Source: the human T2T-CHM13v2.0 reference genome, Homo sapiens
Direction: 5' to 3' (one strand)
DNA: 64,000 bases
Assembly: GCF_009914755.1 (NCBI RefSeq)
Contig: NC_060942.1
In this document: one piece after another, positions 6,367 to 47,207 of the stretch
Layout of the letters: every line of letters starts with the position of its first letter
Numbering within the stretch: position 1 is the stretch's first letter
The notes under the pieces: model-generated
What the model saw: only the letters and a program-made list of their open reading frames with translations
Told to the model about the DNA's origin: nothing
Databases searched by the model: none
Made by a program: the position numbers and the translations under genes

Positions 6367-6554
6367 ATTTCATAAAACGTCTAGACATCCAGGTTCCTGA
6401 AACAGTGTACGTATTTAGGATCCTGGAGTAGGGCTGAGGGGATCTTCTTAGATATTGTCTGTAGGGCTGTCTTGTTTCACACGATTAGTCTTGGCTCTAG
6501 ATGTATCAAAATTTTAACTGTAAACTCAAGGACTGAAATCAGAATGTAAAATGC

Positions 6555-6775
6555 CTAACGTTTATTGAGCATCTATTTTGTACTAAGCTGTGTGCTAAAA
6601 GCTTTAGCTGGATTATCTCATATGAGCCTCACAGCAACCCTGTTACTACATAACCACCCGCCCTTCCTGCAGATTAAGAAACCAAGGCAGGGGCCGATTA
6701 AGTGACTCACCCAAAGTCACTGGGCCCCAAGCTGTGGAACTGAGGCATGAATGGACTACCTGCCTTCGGAGCCCA
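6555..6775. mobile_element. MIR SINE
   Basis: MIR core text: tttattgagcatctattttgtac...ctcacagcaaccctg...gaaaccaaggc...taagtgactcacccaaagtcac. Confidence 0.8.
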
Positions 6776-7924: not shown

Positions 7925-8885
7925 AGGAAATCTCTGTTTGAATATCTAGCAGATTGCTCAACCTTAACATGTTTGAATTGGAACTCCTATTCTTTCTGCC
8001 ATGTTCTCTTCCTCCCAGTTTTCCCACCTCAGGGAAGGACAACTCCCTGCTTCTAGTTCTCAGGCCCAAAGCCTTGAAGTCATTTTGACTTCTCTCATGC
8101 ACCACATCCCACCCATCAGCAAATTATTTTGGCTCTTCCTTTAATGTATACCAAGAACCCACCCTTTCTCACAGCACTGTGGTTGGGCCATCCCGTGTCA
8201 CCTGGATTCCTGCAGTGGCCTCCACACCATCCCACCCCCAGCAGCCCATCCTAGGAAGAGGCATGACCTTGTAGTTTTGACGTAGATACTTTTAAGAATG
8301 TGACTCAGCTATCAGAGTGTGACGGCTTTCATGCTCAAAGCCCTCCAAGGGCTCCCATTTTTTCTCCAAGGACGAAGTACCCATAATGGCCTTCATGGCT
8401 TTAGACAGTTTTGACCCCGCTACCTCTCTGACTTTTCTTATTACTCTTCCACGCCTGTCCCCACCTTGTTCTTGGTCCACACTGGCCTGTGCATTTCTTT
8501 AGACAGGAGGCAAGATCCCATGTCAAAGCCTTTACTCAAGCAGCTTCCCTTTCTGCCTCTCTTCCTCGCACCTCCACAGAAATTTCTCACCTCTAAGCCT
8601 TTCTTTAAATGTCATCTTTAAATTGTAACTGTCCCCCAACCTCCCCTGAGGCACTCCCCATGCCCCTTACTCTAGTTATTTTTCACTTTCCAATAGCATG
8701 TGTGATCTTTCAGCATATTATATGATTTACTTAGAATGCTTATTGACCATTATCTCTCTCCTTCTACTGTAAGCTTTCAGAATAGAGGAAGTTTTTTTGT
8801 GTTTTGTTCACTGATATAGTTCTAATACCCAAAAGAGTGTCAGACACACAGTAGTCACTAAATAAATATTTTTGCATGAATGAAT
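7925..8885 (+). mobile_element. L2 LINE 3' fragment
   Basis: L2 text (ctcaaccttaacatgt...tctagttctcaggcccaaagccttgaagtcattttgacttctctc) ends in aataaatatttttgcatgaatgaat. Confidence 0.85.
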
Positions 8886-9452: not shown

Positions 9453-12015
9453 TCACCCTTTTGTGGTATGTTTGTCCTTCACAAGCATCCAACAGAGACA
9501 TCCTCTCCTCTCCTGTCTCCTCAGATTTCTCTTTAAATAACTTCATTTCCTTTGAAACCTGCCCTGATCCCACAGTTTAAATTCATTTCAATTCAATAAA
9601 GAGAGTTAAGAAAGGCCTGTGTCATAAAGAGTATGATTTACTCTTATGTTGAGCCACAAAACTGATACAAACTTGTAAACTAAAGGCCTGGCTCTTAAGA
9701 ATTTATGATACAGTTGGACCAGCATGCATGAGCCCACAGTAAACAGGACAAGATAGAGTGGATTTGGAGCTAAATCCAATGGTGTAGACACGGAGCGCTA
9801 GGGAGGAAAAGTACAGCGATTAAGGAGACACAGTTCCTGCCCTGAAAATTAGCCACTGCCCCAGTGGATTTTGGAATTGCAGGGCTAGTAAATCACGTTT
9901 AAGTCTAAGCTAAAAACACCATTCCTCCATGAGGCCTTGAGTTGTTTCTCCAGCCTCAGATACAACTGTGCCCTGAATTCTTAGAACACTCAGAATCTGT
10001 ACCACATAATTGAACACGTAATTGTATTTTTTCTAGTAATGCTTGCTGGTTTTTTTTTTTTTTTTTTTTCAGGATGGCTAGTCTTCTACTTCAACCAGAT
10101 TGCAAACCCACTAAGGCCTGGGAACATATATGTCTGCATAGAATTGAATGAGACCTTTGAGATCATTCTGTATAATCGTTTTATTTCTACAGCTGGGGAA
10201 ATTGAAGACCAACAAGTTGTGAGTTGTCCAAGCTCATACTACTAATTAGTATTCAGAAAACTCCTTAAAATTCTGCTTGTTTTTGTCTTCCCTTGATTGG
10301 TGAAGAAAAGAGGGAGTGACACTTTTCTCAGGGACTTTGTTACACTGTAGTTTGTCTAGGATTTCCTCACCTTGAGGAGTAGGAGTAGTAAGAGGCATGA
10401 TCTTGTAGTTTTGGTATAGATATTTTTGAGAATGTGAGTCACTTATCACTCTGTGCTGGCCAGGAAGACTTCAATGTGGAAATTCTGGGACTCTGAACAT
10501 TGATTTAAATTCTCTCCACCAATACAGGATAAGGCATTAGAATCAAGAGTTTTTCTCCAAGTGGGAACTCCAAGTGGAGTTTTTCTCCAAGGCCGATGAG
10601 ATAAGCCCTGGTCATAAGTGAGAAAAAGCAGTTCAGATCTGAGCTGGGTTGGCCAGACCAGAGAGAGAAATGGGAGCATTATAAGAGGCTGAGCCTGGCT
10701 CTGGAGGTGAGAGTGTTGGGCTTTCTCTTTAGACACCCAAATGAGAGATGCCTTCTTTCCAGCTGGGAGCCTTGAATGGCCTAAGGTGGCTTGCCATCAC
10801 TGGTCACATCCATTCTTGAGCTGCAGATATCTGAGCCTTGAGAGTCATCAGCCCTGATAGCAAAAGTAGGAAAAAGTCCAGCTAGATCATTGCACATTTG
10901 CCATCTTCTCCACTAGTGCCAGAAAATTGCTCATTTTAATCTTTTTTACTCAAGAAAAAAATATCAATATATTTTGATAAAGGTAGTTGGGTTAAACAGG
11001 ATTTCAATAGTCCTTCTTTAACCTCCAATCTGTTTAGAAACCATTCTTGAGCAGCAATACTTCTTTGCCTGAAACTGAACTGCCCATTCCATTGGTTTTC
11101 TCGCCAAAAAGTTGAAGAAGAATCTATAAAAACTGAGAGTTTTTAATTGCTATTATTTTAATAGCTTTAGGGAGGTATCGTTAACATACAGCCAACTGCA
11201 AATATTTAAAGTATACAACTTGATTTGGTAAGTTTGGACATATGAATCCACCTCTGAAACACCAAAGCTTCCTTGTATTAATACCTCTTTGAAATGTCTT
11301 TCTACCATTCCTGCCCCGTGGTCTCTAGGCAACCACAGATTTGCTTTCTCTCACTCTAGATTAGTTCACATGTTCTAGAATTTTACATCAGTGGAATCCT
11401 ACAATATAAATCTTTTTTGCTTGGCTTCTTTCACTCAGCATAATCATTTTAAAATTTATTTGTGTTCATCAGGTAATTCATTTTTTTGTTGCTACAAAAT
11501 AGTATGTCATTGAATGGATATACCAGAATTGGTTTATCCATTCACCTGTGTTTTAACCAAATTTTAGATCAATTTGTCTATCTTTATGTCAATACTACCC
11601 TTTTTGATTACTTATGTTTTACAATAAATCTTGAAAGCAGGTAGCATTAGTCCTCCAAATTTGCTCTTCTTTTCCAAAATTATTTTGGGTATTCTACGTC
11701 CTTTGTATTTCCATACAGATTTCAAAATCAACTTATCAATTTCTACTAAAAAAAAACTATTGAGATTTTGATTGAGATTGAATTAAATCTATAGATGCAA
11801 CTGGAAGAGACTGATGCCTTAACGTTATCAAGTCTTCCAAGCGAGGAACACAATGTATCTTTTCACTTATTTGCCTTATTTAATTTCTCATAGTAATGTT
11901 ATGATAATGTTATTTGAATTTCAATTTCTGATTGTTCATTGCTAGTATATCCAAATATAATTAACTTTTACGTTGATTTTTGTATCCTGCCACCTTACAA
12001 AGCTCACTAGTTTTA

Positions 12016-17439: not shown

Positions 17440-17619
17440 TAAAATGCTTTATAGTGGTTTCCAAGGTAGTGATATTTAATTTTTTTAAAAATTTTTTATT
17501 TTATTTTTCCATAAGTTATTGAGGTACACTATAAAATGCTTTATAGTGGTTTCCAAGGTAGTGATATTTAATTTTTTTAATATTTTTTATTTTATTTTTC
17601 CGTAAGTTATTGAGGTACA
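17440..17619. repeat. Tandem duplication (89 and 88 bp units) spanning the L1 3' junction
   Basis: 17440-17528 and 17532-17619 differ at about 3 positions and are separated by CTA. Confidence 0.97.
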
Positions 17620-34027: not shown

Positions 34028-34710
34028 GGACCAGCCACAGTGGCTCACACCTGTAATCCTAGCAATTTGAGAGGCCAAGGCAAGAGGATTACTTGAGCCC
34101 AGGAGTTAGAGACTAGCCTGGGCAATGTGGTGAGACCACATTATATGGTTAGGCTTTTTGTCCCCACCTAAATCTCATCCTGAATTGTAATCCTCATAAT
34201 CCGCACATGTCAAGGGAGAGACTAGGTGGAGGTAATTGAATCACAGGGGCAGTTTCCTCCACGCTGTTCTCGTTTCGTGATAGTGAGTGAATTCTCACGA
34301 GATCTGATGGTTTCCCTCTTTCTTCAGCACTTCTGCTTCCTGCCGCCTTTTGAAGAAAGTGCCTTGCTTCTCCTTCACCTTCCACCATGTGTATTTCCTG
34401 AGGCCAACCCAGCCATGCTGAACTGTGAGTCAATTAAACCTCTTTCTTTTATAAATTACCCAGTCTCGGAAAGTTCTTTATAGCAATACGAAAACGGACT
34501 AATATACCTTGTCTCTACAAAAATAAAAAAAACTTAGCCAGTTGTGGTGGTGCACACCAGTGGTCACAGATACTCAGGAGGCTGAGACAGGAGGATCATT
34601 TGAGCTTGGGAAGTCAAGACTGCAGTGAGCCGTGATTACACCACTGCATTCCAGAGATAGAGGGAGACAGTGCCTCAAAAAAGAAAAAAAGAAAGAAAGA
34701 AAGAAAAGAA
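34028..34710 (+). mobile_element. AluJ interrupted by a THE1 solo LTR
   Basis: Left arm runs to 34140 and the Alu resumes at 34507; TSD agaaaacatttttag / agaaaacattttaag. Confidence 0.9.
34141..34506 (+). mobile_element. THE1 (THE1C/D-like) MaLR solo LTR
   Basis: Starts ttatatggttaggcttt...aaatctcat and ends caattaaacctctttc...aaattacccagtctcgg...aaaacggactaatata. Confidence 0.9.
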
Positions 34711-39065: not shown

Positions 39066-41495
39066 GCTGTACAATCTCGAAAATCTTAGCATAGGTCAGT
39101 AGCAGAATTTAAGGCCCAACAATCTGATTTTTGTCAAGCTTTCTGGGAAAGGTCAAATGAGGAGTACCTAGAATCGCACATTATCTGACTACCAAAAGAT
39201 TTGTCCACATCCTATGAGAAAGCTGAAAGAATGCATGGGAATATAACCCAACAATTCTACTCTCAATGCACATATATTATCTATGGGTAGGCACCAAGTC
39301 TATGTTTACCCTTAGGAGGCACAATAAGAAACAACTTGAATTTATCTAGGAAAAAAAAACTTGATTTTTTCCCCCTGATCAAAGGAATAAGCCAGAATTG
39401 TCTAAACCTTCCTTCCTCAAATGCCGAGATGAGCATTTCCTTTCATCAAGTATCCCAGCAATTTCTTTCCTACAGTTAAATCTTGAGTGTGGACCCTGTG
39501 GACATCCAATGACCTGGAATATAGAGGCGCTATCCCAGAAGATCTGGGCCCAGGTGCAGAACAAACCAATGCTCTTCCTAATGTGTTCCTCTTTTCAGTA
39601 ACAATAAAAAGTTATAATCACTTTTTTAATCAGTTTTCCCCATTTGGATAAGCACAGTCCATGGCTCTCTCTGGTCCTAAACATGCTGTTCATGCCTGTT
39701 AATGACCAGCCCCCATCGTTTACTAAGCACATGCTCATCTCACTTTGGTGAATTAATATTGGCACTTAGCTCACTTATAAAGGCTATTTATTATCAATTT
39801 TTCAAATTAGCAGTTGATTGGCATTCAGTATAACTTCTTTTGGGGGCAGGGTCTTGATGTACAGCTAATTAAACTAAGGAATTCATCTGTTCAAAAGTTA
39901 GAAGAATTAGAATTGTGAAAAAATAACATTTTTTGCCTCAAAATTGCTATACTCATATGTATAAAGTTTCTATATAATGTGATGAAATAATTATTGTAAT
40001 TAGCAACTTAATTTGAATTTAGATGCAATTTGTTTTTTTTCTTTTTAGAAATCTAAATTAATTCCCTGGGAAACTGATGAGAATTTTTCAAAGTAGAAAT
40101 AAATGCCTGTAATAAATCAAGAGATAAGGGAACAGGCAGAGATTATTCTGCAATTAAAGTTTACTAAATTAATTCCACTTAAACTCCTTGGAGTTTAATG
40201 TGAAAAAACTAGGAAGTGTGTGTATCTTCTTGGATTAAAAAATTCACACTGAAAATTTAAAGGCAAAGAAGAGAAAAGAACCATGTAATCACTATTTCCC
40301 TAAACACTAATCAGAAAATGAATGTACATATCCTTCTCACAGTTTGATATTAAAAATATAAATAAAAGGCACCAAACTTGAGTAAATTAAATGGAAGCGT
40401 GGACAGGTGATTGGAAGTTGAATGTGAATATTTGTTTTACCCAAATGAATCTAAATTTCATTAGTTGATAATTAAAAGGAAATTATACAGACATTACAAT
40501 TACTGGCAATGGCATAAATTATGAAGCAGTATGGCAAAACAATTTAGGAACTCACATTGCTGTTACTATTGTCAAACTGGTTACCAGAGAAACCTAGGAT
40601 AAATAATATACTCTGTGACTATGGAAATGAGGCCTTGATGTGTTGCTAAGCTGTTAAAGCTAATGTCATTGTGTAAAACAATAATGTTAAACATTATTAG
40701 TTTTTTAATTATGTCAGTTAATTAGGATTGTTCCTGTTAATTGCTTATGATTCATCTCCAGATGAAAAATGCTCAAGTAAGAGCTTTCGCTTTTTCTCTC
40801 CAACATACCATCTAAAATAAGGCCGGAGTTTTGTACAGCTGAATTTTACAAGCACCATTAGCCTGGGCAACATTGGGAATCATGGCCAAATTCATCCATA
40901 ATAAAAGATACATTAATAAAAACATAGTATTAAGGAAGATAAGAATACAGAGCCATCATTTTATCACACTGGACTAAAAGATTGACCCTTGATTCCCAAT
41001 CGTTGCTTTTACATCAAATATTTTTATATCAAATCTAAAGCAAATGTGATTTGGGCAGACTATTTGACATTTTCCTAGCCTATAAAATACCAAAACATTG
41101 AACTTCTGTTAATTCAGCTTCTTCTTTATATTTCATGAACTCAGAAAAAGTTTATATATCTTAATTTTACTTGTATTGTTCAATACGTATTGAGTATCAT
41201 AGTGTTTGATTAAAAGACTACGTTAAACACTGGATATCCGGTTACAGGAAAATAGGAGCATGAGCCTTCCCTTGTAGGACTTAGGGTTTAAAACCACAAA
41301 GGCACCAGTATATCACTTACTGCAGTTGAGACCATCAAAACCTTAAAACCATATCACAGCGTCATGGCCAGAATACCAACAAACTAAGTCTAACCTTCTC
41401 AGCTTCCCCCATCTAGAATAAAAGCAGAAATGCTTGTTCATGAAGTTTTGGTCTGCTACTATATTCCTAGTGCCCAGATGGCGGTTTATTATAGG

Positions 41496-41743
41496 TGTTT
41501 ACTTCATATTTGTTGAATTGATAAATTGACTATTACTGGAAAAGCAAAAAAAAATATCAAATGAGCTTCTCCAGAGCAATTTTGTTTGGTATTAAACTTT
41601 AATAATGTAACACCAAGAGAGTTTATGAAGAAAACACATTTTTTTAAAAAAAAGTTAATTTTTCAGTGTTTGTACTTTACGATTAGGTATAAGAAATGTT
41701 ACAGAATTTGTGCTTATATTCTGATGAGAAGTCTTTGTTTTTG
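41496..41743 (+). repeat. Donor segment of a dispersed local duplication (copy at 44845-45133)
   Basis: Near-identical to 44845-45133; it begins within the 3' tail of an L2-like fragment (about 41400-41530). Confidence 0.97.
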
Positions 41744-41869
41744 AAATATCTAAAGTTTTCAGTGGAAGAGGGGCTTTCAGAGAATAATTGTATCACAATA
41801 AAATGATATCTATAATATAATTGCACCACTTCCTACAATATGCAGTAGCAAGAATGACTCATCTCTGTG

Positions 41870-43716: not shown

Positions 43717-44175
43717 GTCCAGGCGTGGTAGCTCACACCTGTAATCCCAGCACTTTGGCAGGCAGAGGTGGGCAGATCACCTGCCCCCTCCGGCTGGGTC
43801 AAAGAAGGTAGTATTAAGGTTGCAGTCTGTTAATAGTATAGTAATGCCAGAGGTCAGGAGTTTGAGACCAGCCTGGCCAACATGGTGAAACCCTATCTCT
43901 ACTAAATATGTACATGTATATATACATATATATATATGTATATATATGTGTGTGTGTATGTGTGTGTGTGTATGTATACATATATATGAAGCTGGGTGTG
44001 GTGGTGGGTACCTGTAATCCCAGCTACTCAGGAGGCTGAGGCAAGAGAATCACTTGAACCCAGGAGGCAGACGTGGCAGTGAGCCACGATCACACCACTG
44101 CACTCCAGCCTGGGCAACGGAGTGAGCCTCCATCTCAAAAAAATAGAATAAAATATAAATATAAATAAATAAAAA
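43717..44175 (+). mobile_element. AluS (Sx-like) carrying a 67-bp NUMT and a (TA)/(TG) microsatellite in its linker
   Basis: The Alu reads continuously as GATCACCTG|AGGTCAGGAG once 43784-43850 is removed. The linker is replaced by TA/TG repeats (about 43906-43988). Degenerate TSD aaaaatgtctcaggg / aaaaagtcccaggg. Confidence 0.95.
43784..43850 (-). pseudogene. MT-CO1: Micro-NUMT: 67-bp fragment of mitochondrial cytochrome c oxidase subunit I
   Basis: The reverse complement CTGGCATTACTATACTATTAACAGACTGCAACCTTAATACTACCTTCTTTGACCCAGCCGGAGGGGG translates (vertebrate mitochondrial code) as [21 protein letters not shown]. This matches the conserved COX1 motif [22 protein letters not shown]. Confidence 0.95.
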
Positions 44176-44734: not shown

Positions 44735-44894
44735 TGGAAAATGTACAGTTTCCAGAGATGGTTTTCAGCAATTCCTTCTATTCCTCTACACTCATGTTGT
44801 TCTTGCCATCAAGAGGTAGAGCCGGCCAGGTGCGGTGGCTCACTTGTTTACTTCATATTTGTTGAATTGGTAAATTGGCTGTTACTGGAAATGC

Positions 44895-44952
<58 letters not shown>

Positions 44953-45535
44953 AGCTTCTCCAGAGCAATTTTGTTTGGTATTAAACTTTAATCATGTAAC
45001 ATCAAGAGAGTTTATGATGAAGAAAACACATTTTAAAAAAAAGGTTAATTTTTCAGTGTTGGTACTTTACGATTAGGTATAAGAAATGTTACAGAATTTG
45101 TGCTTATATTTTGATGAGAAGTCTTTGTTTTTGGCCTAAATCCCAACACTTTGGGAGGCCGAAGCGGGTGGATCACTTGAGGCCAGGAATTTGAGACCAG
45201 CCTAGCCAACATGGTGAAACCCTGTCTCTACTAAAAATACAAAAAATTAGCTGGGTGTGTTGGTGCATGCCTGTAATTCTAGCTACTTGGGAGCCTGAGA
45301 CATGAGAATTGCTTGAACCCAGGAGGCAGAGGTTGCAGTGAGCTGAGATTGCACTCCAACTTGGGTGACAGAGTGAAACTCTGTCTCAAAAAAAAAAAAA
45401 AAGAATTAGAGCCTACCCCTCATGCACACACGCATAAGAAAAGCCCACCTGACCCACAGAATGGAAGGAATAAAATGGTTGTGTTAGGCTACTGCGTTTT
45501 GGAGTGGATTCTTATTCAGCAAGAGAAATGGGATA
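44735..45535. mobile_element. MLT1-type LTR remnant hosting the split Alu
   Basis: tccagagatgg...ccatcaagaggtagag before the Alu and cctgacccacagaa...aataaaatggttg...ttttggagtgg after it. Confidence 0.55.
44824..45402 (+). mobile_element. AluS (Sz-like) split by a 290-bp templated insertion
   Basis: GGCCAGGTGCGGTGGCTCAC | insert 44844-45133 | GCCTAAATCCCAACACTTTGGG; TSD aagaggtagagcc / aagaattagagcc. Confidence 0.95.
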
Positions 45536-46796: not shown

Positions 46797-47207
46797 CCGG
46801 TGATGCTATATCATGGGCAATTCTGCCACCCCTAGGTGACATTTGGCAATATCTGGAGACATTTTTGGTGGCCACAACTGGAGGACGGTGCTAGTGGCGT
46901 CTACTGGGAAGAGGCCAGGGATGCCGCTAAATCTCCCACCTTGCATAGGACAGCTCCCTACAACCAAGAGGGCCTCAAATCCAGCCCCACAGGGCCCCAC
47001 AGGACAGCTCCCTACAACCAAGAGGGCCTCCAATCCAGCCCCACAGGACAGCTCCCTACAACCAAGAGGGCCTCCAATCCAGCCCCACAGGACAGCCCCC
47101 TACAACCAAGAGGGCCTCCAATCCAGCCCCACAGGACAGCTCCCTACAACCAAGAGGGCCTCAAATCCAGCCCCACATGCCAGTAGTGCCCCAATTAGGA
47201 AATTCTG
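46797..47207 (+). mobile_element. MER20 (hAT-Charlie) with an internal minisatellite
   Basis: gacatttggcaatatctggagacatttttgg...gaggccagggatgccgctaaa...caggacagc...agtagtgcc...gaaattctg. Confidence 0.9.
46947..47176. repeat. Minisatellite of five 44-bp units
   Basis: Unit AGGACAGCTCCCTACAACCAAGAGGGCCTCMAATCCAGCCCCAC starts at 46947, 47001, 47045, 47089 and 47133, with a 10-bp partial unit at 46991-47000. Confidence 0.98.

What the first reader, a model, noticed from the sequence alone, without database searches (positions are those of the whole stretch)
44844..45133. Alu split by a templated copy of DNA from 3.3 kb upstream
Seen: the Alu at 44824 stops after ...GGCTCAC and resumes at GCCT... 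with nothing lost. Between them is a same-orientation copy of 41496-41743, with about 10 substitutions, small indels and one extra T at the left junction. There is no TSD and no terminal poly-A. The 41496 copy is contiguous with an upstream L2 tail, so it is the donor. Inference: a locally templated insertion from break repair or template switching (SDSA, MMBIR or polymerase-theta type), not retrotransposition. The roughly 95% donor-copy identity suggests it postdates the Alu.
Basis: partly seen in the sequence, partly recalled or inferred. Interest (0 to 1): 0.7.

Follow-up and report, generated by a model that had tools for sequence, protein, structure and literature searches.

The report
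Local DNA patch splitting an Alu
An old Alu repeat on human chromosome 18 is split by a 96%-identical copy of 248 bases from about 3 kb upstream, likely the scar of an ancient DNA-break repair and an ordinary further example of a kind already catalogued hundreds of times in the human genome.

Summary
A full-length AluS with its own target-site duplication (44811-45413) is cut between consensus bases 20 and 21. The genome search finds only these two copies. The copy is younger than the Alu: 10 differences against about 24-27 expected (age ratio 0.38, 95% interval 0.15-0.93).

This is a repair-mediated duplication of the kind described by Pace et al. 2009 (824 human cases with donors within 5 kb of a split transposon). 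This locus is not among their chr18 rows, probably because the 20-base Alu stub goes unannotated. The likeliest mechanism is break-induced copying from the nearby donor, finished by end joining. Replication template switching and capture of a free fragment are not excluded. The L2 argument for which copy is the donor is only weakly supported, but the split Alu settles the polarity.

The neighbouring Alu, 1 kb upstream, is also split, by a catalogued 67-base mitochondrial COX1 insertion. A shared cause is possible but not shown. Primate orthologues could not be examined.

The parts
44811..44823 (+). 5' target-site duplication of the host Alu
   Evidence: matches 45401-45413 with 2 mismatches in 13
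44824..44843 (+). 5' stub of the host Alu (consensus 1-20)
   Evidence: 18 of 20 identical to the consensus of 175 Alus, both differences at CpG sites
44844..44844 (+). one extra base at the left junction: filler, or a changed copy of donor base 41495
44845..45133 (+). inserted copy (acceptor) of 41496-41743
   Evidence: 235 of 245 aligned columns identical; only other genomic match found is the donor
44895..44947 (+). A27-(TA)13 microsatellite expanded in the copy from an A9 run of the donor
45134..45400 (+). rest of the host Alu (consensus 21-282, then A tail); 1-base loss plus substitution at consensus 25-26, next to the junction; 8-base deletion in the right arm
   Evidence: SRP-RNA similarity of the right arm, 51.2 bits, below the gathering score of 70
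45401..45413 (+). 3' target-site duplication of the host Alu
41496..41743 (+). donor segment, 75% A+T; its first ~30 bases carry a dispersed-repeat tail motif (L2-like, name recalled)
   Evidence: the 16-base motif has 149 genomic matches against 2 for the reversed control
43784..43850 (-). neighbouring feature: mitochondrial COX1 fragment (NUMT) splitting the next Alu upstream (about 43717-44175) at consensus 67/68
   Evidence: 22 codons open under the mitochondrial code, 21 of 22 identical to COX1 residues 205-226, E 4.8e-8; boundaries from 11 other NUMT copies; catalogued as numt_312, fixed

Best explanation
This is a 248-base stretch duplicated into an old Alu from about 3 kb upstream, likely the scar of a germline DNA break that was patched by copying nearby DNA (a repair-mediated duplication). 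Shown: the Alu is complete and has its own target-site duplication; the copy sits between Alu bases 20 and 21 with nothing lost; only donor and copy were found in the genome; the pair is much less diverged than the Alu's age predicts. Inferred: a double-strand break fell at Alu base 20/21; one resected end invaded the donor (same chromatid or sister) and was extended by about 250 bases; it was released and joined to the other end by end joining, leaving one filler base; the A run then expanded into an A/(TA)n microsatellite. The event probably dates to about 0.4 of the Alu's age, roughly 5-25 million years ago. It is most likely neutral: no gene or annotated element overlaps it. Confidence in the broad class (local templated repair insertion younger than the Alu) is about 0.9; the number below is for this particular pathway.
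For: Anatomy. Uniqueness. Age: pooled non-CpG divergence of 175 Alus (7.1% at G/C, 4.0% at A/T sites) predicts 23.7-26.6 pair differences if the copy were as old as the Alu, against 10 seen; conditional test p = 0.016, age ratio 0.38 (0.15-0.93). A consensus-free check on 52 TSD pairs from 137 full-length Alus gives 12.3% pair divergence against 4.1% here (rough, the control gave 6 chance hits). Class match: Pace et al. found 824 of 1,136 duplicons interrupting transposons with the donor within 5 kb, mean 162 bases, maximum 619, none of 39 inspected with a poly-A/T tail; 'filler only' junctions were 2 of 39. Min et al. report that 59% of induced insertions have one blunt and one microhomology end (passage).
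Against: No exact microhomology at either junction on the simple parse (0 and 0; 1 if donor base 41495 is counted), and imperfect similarity near the junctions is no better than random 25-mers (45% and 23% score as high). Strand invasion usually needs some pairing: 31 of 39 proximal cases in Pace Table 1 show microhomology. Sequence alone cannot tell break repair from a replication template switch. This Alu's own TSD (2 of 13) does not differ significantly from the donor-copy pair (p = 0.12). The split CpG is intact while 18 of the other 21 have decayed, which weakly favours an early event. Gene conversion between the copies could make the pair look younger. No orthologue was seen.
Confidence: 0.62

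Rival explanations
1. Replication template switching (FoSTeS/MMBIR type): a stalled nascent strand at Alu base 20 jumped back 3.3 kb, copied 248 bases and returned to base 21, with no two-ended break.
For: Gives the same product: same orientation, donor kept, nothing lost. A small indel 4 bases from the junction fits error-prone restart synthesis (recalled).
Against: Needs two switches with an exact return and no microhomology at either.
Confidence: 0.15
2. End-joining capture of a free fragment: a piece of the donor (a flap, a piece excised from the sister or homologue, or an RNA-templated copy) was ligated into the break, the way mitochondrial DNA is captured.
For: Blunt junctions, no deletion and one filler base. 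The neighbouring Alu holds a mitochondrial fragment with 0-1 base of overlap. Induced insertions need DNA-PK (abstract).
Against: The strong preference for donors within 5 kb (824 of 1,136) is more simply explained by contact and copying. If the donor has lost 4 bases after 41743 (alternative parse), the right junction had microhomology.
Confidence: 0.15
3. Co-insertion: the segment entered while the Alu was being reverse-transcribed (template switch near the 5' end and back), so Alu and insert are the same age.
For: The break is only 20 bases from the Alu 5' end; the split CpG is undecayed while 18 of 21 others have decayed.
Against: 10 differences seen against 24-27 expected or about 30 at the TSD rate. 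The CpG at 20-21 is intact in 74 of 173 other Alus anyway. It needs an exact return to base 20.
Confidence: 0.04
4. L1-mediated retrocopy of a local transcript inserted into the Alu.
For: The donor's right end lies at a T-run/A-run boundary that loosely resembles an L1 endonuclease site (resemblance recalled; sequence).
Against: No TSD, no terminal poly-A or poly-T, the A run is internal and short in the donor, and the target site in the Alu is not T/A-rich. None of 39 proximal duplicons inspected by Pace et al. had retrotransposition marks.
Confidence: 0.02
5. Assembly artefact or member of a multi-copy repeat.
For: None found.
Against: The copies differ at 10 sites plus four length changes, unlike a false duplication; only 2 genomic matches.
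Confidence: 0.01

Closest known systems
Repair-mediated duplications (RDs), Pace, Sen, Batzer and Feschotte 2009, PMC2671141
   Same: Non-repeat insert of 50 bases or more interrupting a transposon; single donor within 5 kb; length within range (mean 162, maximum 619); no poly-A/T tail; filler base at a junction.
   Different: No exact microhomology on the simple parse (8 of 39 inspected proximal RDs also lack it; 2 of 39 are 'filler only'); carries a large microsatellite expansion; not among the 72 of 72 chr18 cells of their Table S1 (position anchored).
Class 2 templated sequence insertion polymorphisms (Onozawa and Aplan 2016, PMC5110952; abstract only)
   Same: A DNA patch at a presumed double-strand break without L1 hallmarks.
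   Different: TSIPs are polymorphic and templated from distant regions; this one is local and, at 4% divergence, almost certainly old (fixation not tested).
Templated insertions at induced breaks (Indel-Seq, Min et al., bioRxiv 10.1101/2022.09.30.509517; abstract and passages)
   Same: Size class (median 120, up to 260 detectable); contact-dependent donors; often one blunt end.
   Different: Somatic, experimental, with donors near other induced breaks; here germline and ancient.
NUMT numt_312 (PMC13179385, Supplementary Data 3)
   Same: It is the neighbouring insertion itself: chr18:55,223,784-55,223,859, chrM 6504-6580, listed as fixed.
   Different: The catalogue row does not mention that it splits an Alu or lies 1 kb from an RD; homology to other NUMT copies is clean only to 43850.

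Membership tests
Repair-mediated duplication (Pace et al. 2009) | Insert of 50 bases or more between two collinear pieces of one transposon | tested here: met
   290 bases between Alu consensus 20 and 21
Repair-mediated duplication (Pace et al. 2009) | Insert found at exactly one other place in the genome | tested here: met
   2 matches in the whole genome (the search skips very common words)
Repair-mediated duplication (Pace et al. 2009) | Donor more than 50 bases and less than 5 kb away | tested here: met
   gap of 3,100 bases
Repair-mediated duplication (Pace et al. 2009) | No terminal poly-A/T tract | tested here: met
   the A run is internal and is A9 in the donor
Repair-mediated duplication (Pace et al. 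2009) | At least one repair mark: microhomology, filler or deletion | tested here: met
   1 filler base, no deletion, no exact microhomology on the simple parse; 'filler only' is a listed category, 2 of 39
Repair-mediated duplication (Pace et al. 2009) | Empty site in an outgroup orthologue | not testable with these tools
   no other primate genome is held
L1-mediated retrocopy / class 1 TSIP | Target-site duplication around the insert | tested here: not met
   Alu bases 20 and 21 flank the insert with no repeat
L1-mediated retrocopy / class 1 TSIP | Terminal poly-A | tested here: not met
Polymerase-theta end joining | Junction microhomology with flanking deletion; short inserts templated from the immediate flanks (features recalled) | tested here: not met
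   0 microhomology, 0 deletion, 248-base insert from 3.1 kb away; the alternative parse of the right junction is open
Alu (AluS; AluSz/Sz6-like by recalled diagnostic positions) | Dimeric 7SL-derived body, A tail, TSD | tested here: met
Alu (AluS; AluSz/Sz6-like by recalled diagnostic positions) | Subfamily assignment against curated consensus sequences | not testable with these tools
   no Dfam or Repbase library; the name is recalled
L2 3' tail at the donor | Family similarity continuing upstream of 41496 in the donor only | tested here: inconclusive
   A profile from 20 motif-bearing loci plus 6 recruited hits extends 35 bases upstream in the donor (16.8 bits vs 10.3 for the tail alone) and stops at the junction in the copy. 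The upstream flank alone scores like random DNA and was not reported by the profile.

The most novel reading that the evidence does not exclude
Two neighbouring Alus 1 kb apart were broken and patched in one germline episode of clustered breaks, or at one locally fragile site: one captured mitochondrial COX1 DNA and the other copied nearby chromosomal DNA. That would be a single fossil linking NUMT capture and repair-mediated duplication, testable by whether both inserts first appear on the same primate branch.
Probability: 0.12. Interest if true: 0.45.

Novelty: new member of a known kind. Interest (0 to 1): 0.2.

Why it matters
The locus itself matters little: it is one more of at least 824 known human repair-mediated duplications, intergenic and with no sign of function. 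Two small points have some value. It shows a blind spot of RepeatMasker-based catalogues: a break near a repeat's end leaves a stub too short to annotate (NCBI's mask starts at 45136), so published counts are probably lower bounds. It also sits 1 kb from a NUMT inside another Alu, a placement reported as rare (10 of 557, PMC3467031), so primate orthologues offer a cheap test of whether break-repair scars of different kinds arise together.

Tried and rejected
Junction homology: no exact microhomology, and near-matches no better than random. L2 contiguity: a first script failed at its last step; a pairwise test with the 8 most mutually similar of 20 motif loci put the donor flank at the random mean (39.5% of 1,000 random 70-mers scored as high); an iterated profile gave only +6.5 bits. 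Left inconclusive. Rfam found no RNA family in donor or insert; its 17 matches are Alu- or microsatellite-related and all below the gathering score. The sigma-70 promoter and terminator scan is not meaningful for human DNA and was ignored. Dating the NUMT against the duplication: it differs from the majority of 11 other NUMT copies at 2 of 65 positions, too few to date. Tao et al. 2023 supplement: 0 hits for the coordinates and 0 for 'chr18', so that search says nothing. The primate lineage table of PMC13179385 was not visible because the file is cut when stored. The NUMT is not among the 7 of 7 chr18 rows of Tsuji et al. 2012 but is in the 2026 catalogue. Rejected: retrocopy, multi-copy repeat, assembly artefact, and, largely, co-insertion with the Alu.

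Full report
1. Observation. Self-BLAST of the window shows 44845-45133 matching 41496-41743 on the same strand, E 5e-80. The pairwise alignment has 10 substitutions in 245 aligned columns (95.9%), three indels of 1-3 bases and one 40-base gap (a final 4-base block beyond the junction is left out of this count and discussed in section 5). The gap is a microsatellite: A9 in the donor, A27 plus (TA)13 in the copy. One extra T lies at 44844. A search of the whole genome with 41400-41850 returns 2 places, donor and copy (the tool skips very common words).

2. Host element. I built a majority consensus from 175 near-full-length Alus in the window and 200 kb of fetched DNA. Bases 44824-44843 are consensus 1-20 and 45134-45387 are consensus 21-282, so no Alu base is lost or repeated at the break. 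The Alu has an A tail and a 13-base target-site duplication with 2 mismatches (44811-44823, 45401-45413). It is therefore an ordinary complete retrotransposition product, and the site inside it is the acceptor. This settles polarity without the L2 argument. The subfamily looks like old AluS (Sz/Sz6); that name is recalled, not tested.

3. L2 claim. The 16 bases at 41506-41521 occur 149 times in the genome against 2 for the reversed control, so the donor starts in a dispersed-repeat motif. I fetched 20 of those 149 places. A profile from them aligns 35 bases further upstream in the donor than in the copy, but gains only 6.5 bits, and the upstream flank alone scores like random DNA. The claim is plausible but not shown.

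4. Timing. Excluding CpG and subfamily-variable columns, the 175 Alus differ from consensus at 7.1% of G/C and 4.0% of A/T sites, and the split Alu at 13 of 203 sites. For a 248-base donor with 63 G/C, a duplication as old as the Alu should show 23.7-26.6 differences; 10 are seen. The conditional test gives p = 0.016 and an age ratio of 0.38 (0.15-0.93). TSD pairs found for 52 of 137 full-length Alus diverge by 12.3% over their proximal 10 bases, against 4.1% (2.0-7.5%) here. That check is rough: the control gave 6 chance hits, and A-rich TSDs were skipped. Against this reading: the Alu's own TSD (2 of 13) is not significantly different from the pair (p = 0.12); the CpG split by the insertion is intact while 18 of the other 21 have decayed, though that CpG is intact in 74 of 173 other Alus; and gene conversion could lower the pair's divergence. 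At the rate used by Pace et al. (2.2e-9 per site per year) 4.1% is about 9 million years. Their chr18 rows shared with macaque run from 2.1 to 6.6%, so presence in macaque is open.

5. Junctions. On the simple parse there is no exact microhomology at either end, no deletion and one filler base; near-matches are no better than random. The right junction has a second parse. Four bases into the resumed Alu there is a 1-base loss plus a substitution that only 2 of 170 Alus resemble, and the resulting bases 45138-45141 equal donor 41744-41747. If the donor once also carried the 4 bases now at 45134-45137 and lost them later, the Alu end had 7-8 bases of near-homology with the donor and primed there. 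This is inference; an outgroup donor sequence decides it.

6. Mechanism. Most likely (0.62): a germline double-strand break at Alu base 20/21, invasion of the donor 3.1 kb away by one end, about 250 bases of synthesis, release, and end joining with one filler base. Rivals are a replication template switch (0.15), ligation of a free fragment (0.15), co-insertion with the Alu (0.04), retrocopy (0.02) and artefact (0.01). The first three all make it a local templated repair insertion younger than the Alu (about 0.9 together). No function is indicated: no gene or annotated element overlaps it (annotation supplied with the finding) and Rfam finds nothing in donor or insert.

7. Comparison with what is known. 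Pace et al. 2009 (PMC2671141; I read the abstract and parts 1-6 of 7 of the text) searched for exactly this pattern and found 1,136 unique duplicons interrupting transposons, 824 with the donor within 5 kb. Of 39 proximal cases inspected, none had a poly-A/T tail, 31 had microhomology and 2 had filler only. This locus meets every criterion I could test. I viewed 72 of 72 'chr18' cells of their Table S1. To convert coordinates I located their TCF4 case in the T2T sequence (55-base donor at 55,672,723), which gives an offset of 4,384,875 and puts this insert near hg18 50.84 Mb; no row lies there, and neither chr18 Alu row matches in size or distance. The likely reason (inference) is that their pipeline needs both repeat pieces annotated, and NCBI's mask here starts at 45136. 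Related work: Min et al. (bioRxiv 10.1101/2022.09.30.509517; abstract and passages) and Onozawa and Aplan 2016 (PMC5110952; abstract only). Seven full-text searches were by topic, not by locus, and showed no paper on this site. Subscription journals and bioRxiv supplements are not covered, so absence from print is not established.

8. Neighbour. The next Alu upstream (about 43717-44175) is also split, at consensus 67/68, by 43784-43850. On the minus strand this reads as 22 open codons under the vertebrate mitochondrial code, 21 of them identical to COX1 205-226. It has 14 other genomic matches at 80-91% and is catalogued as numt_312, fixed and present in GRCh38 (PMC13179385; passages and one supplement row seen). 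Tsuji et al. 2012 (PMC3467031; passages, one section, chr18 supplement rows) report only 10 of 557 NUMTs inside retrotransposons and do not list this one (7 of 7 chr18 rows). With 610 NUMTs and 824-1,830 RDs, 0.36-0.79 pairs within 1.1 kb are expected genome-wide by chance, so coincidence is not excluded. Requiring the NUMT to lie inside a repeat would lower that figure considerably, but that condition is chosen after the fact. The NUMT is too short to date (2 of 65 differences from the majority of 11 copies).

9. Verdict. A real, well-preserved, apparently unlisted member of a known class. Interest 0.2. The boldest reading left open is a single clustered-break episode that produced both the NUMT and the duplication (probability 0.12, interest 0.45); primate orthologues would decide it.

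Noticed in passing
window 43784-43850 (- strand), inside the Alu at about 43717-44175: A 67-base mitochondrial COX1 fragment (catalogued NUMT numt_312, fixed) splits this Alu at consensus 67/68 with 0-1 base of overlap; the reading frame is still open, with one CpG-type Arg-to-Cys change.
   Followed up: yes
window about 43907-43989: The middle A-rich linker of the NUMT-bearing Alu has become an approximately 80-base (TA)n/(TG)n microsatellite, so both neighbouring Alus have also grown microsatellites.
   Followed up: no
window 8252-8326 vs 10386-10460: A second, older same-orientation local duplication of about 75 bases, about 81% identical, 2.1 kb apart. The 8252 copy seems to interrupt an L2-like stretch (name recalled, untested). 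A candidate older repair-mediated duplication, also not among the chr18 rows of Pace Table S1.
   Followed up: partly
window 34040-34654: An older Alu interrupted at consensus 109/112 by a 373-base insert that looks like an LTR-type element (MST-like, recalled); an ordinary nested insertion.
   Followed up: partly
window 17440-17619 and 46944-47183: A near-perfect tandem duplication of about 90 bases (96.6%) and a short tandem array with units of about 90-100 bases.
   Followed up: no
L016 (G000:C18:55,674,523-55,674,869): The split Alu listed by Pace et al. in a TCF4 intron was recovered in the T2T sequence, with its 55-base donor 1.8 kb upstream; used as positive control and coordinate anchor.
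   Followed up: yes
L029 7558-8097 and L030 2561-2926 (chr19): Two further Alus appear split by inserts of 254 and 166 bases in the collinearity scan; the nature of the inserts was not examined.
   Followed up: no
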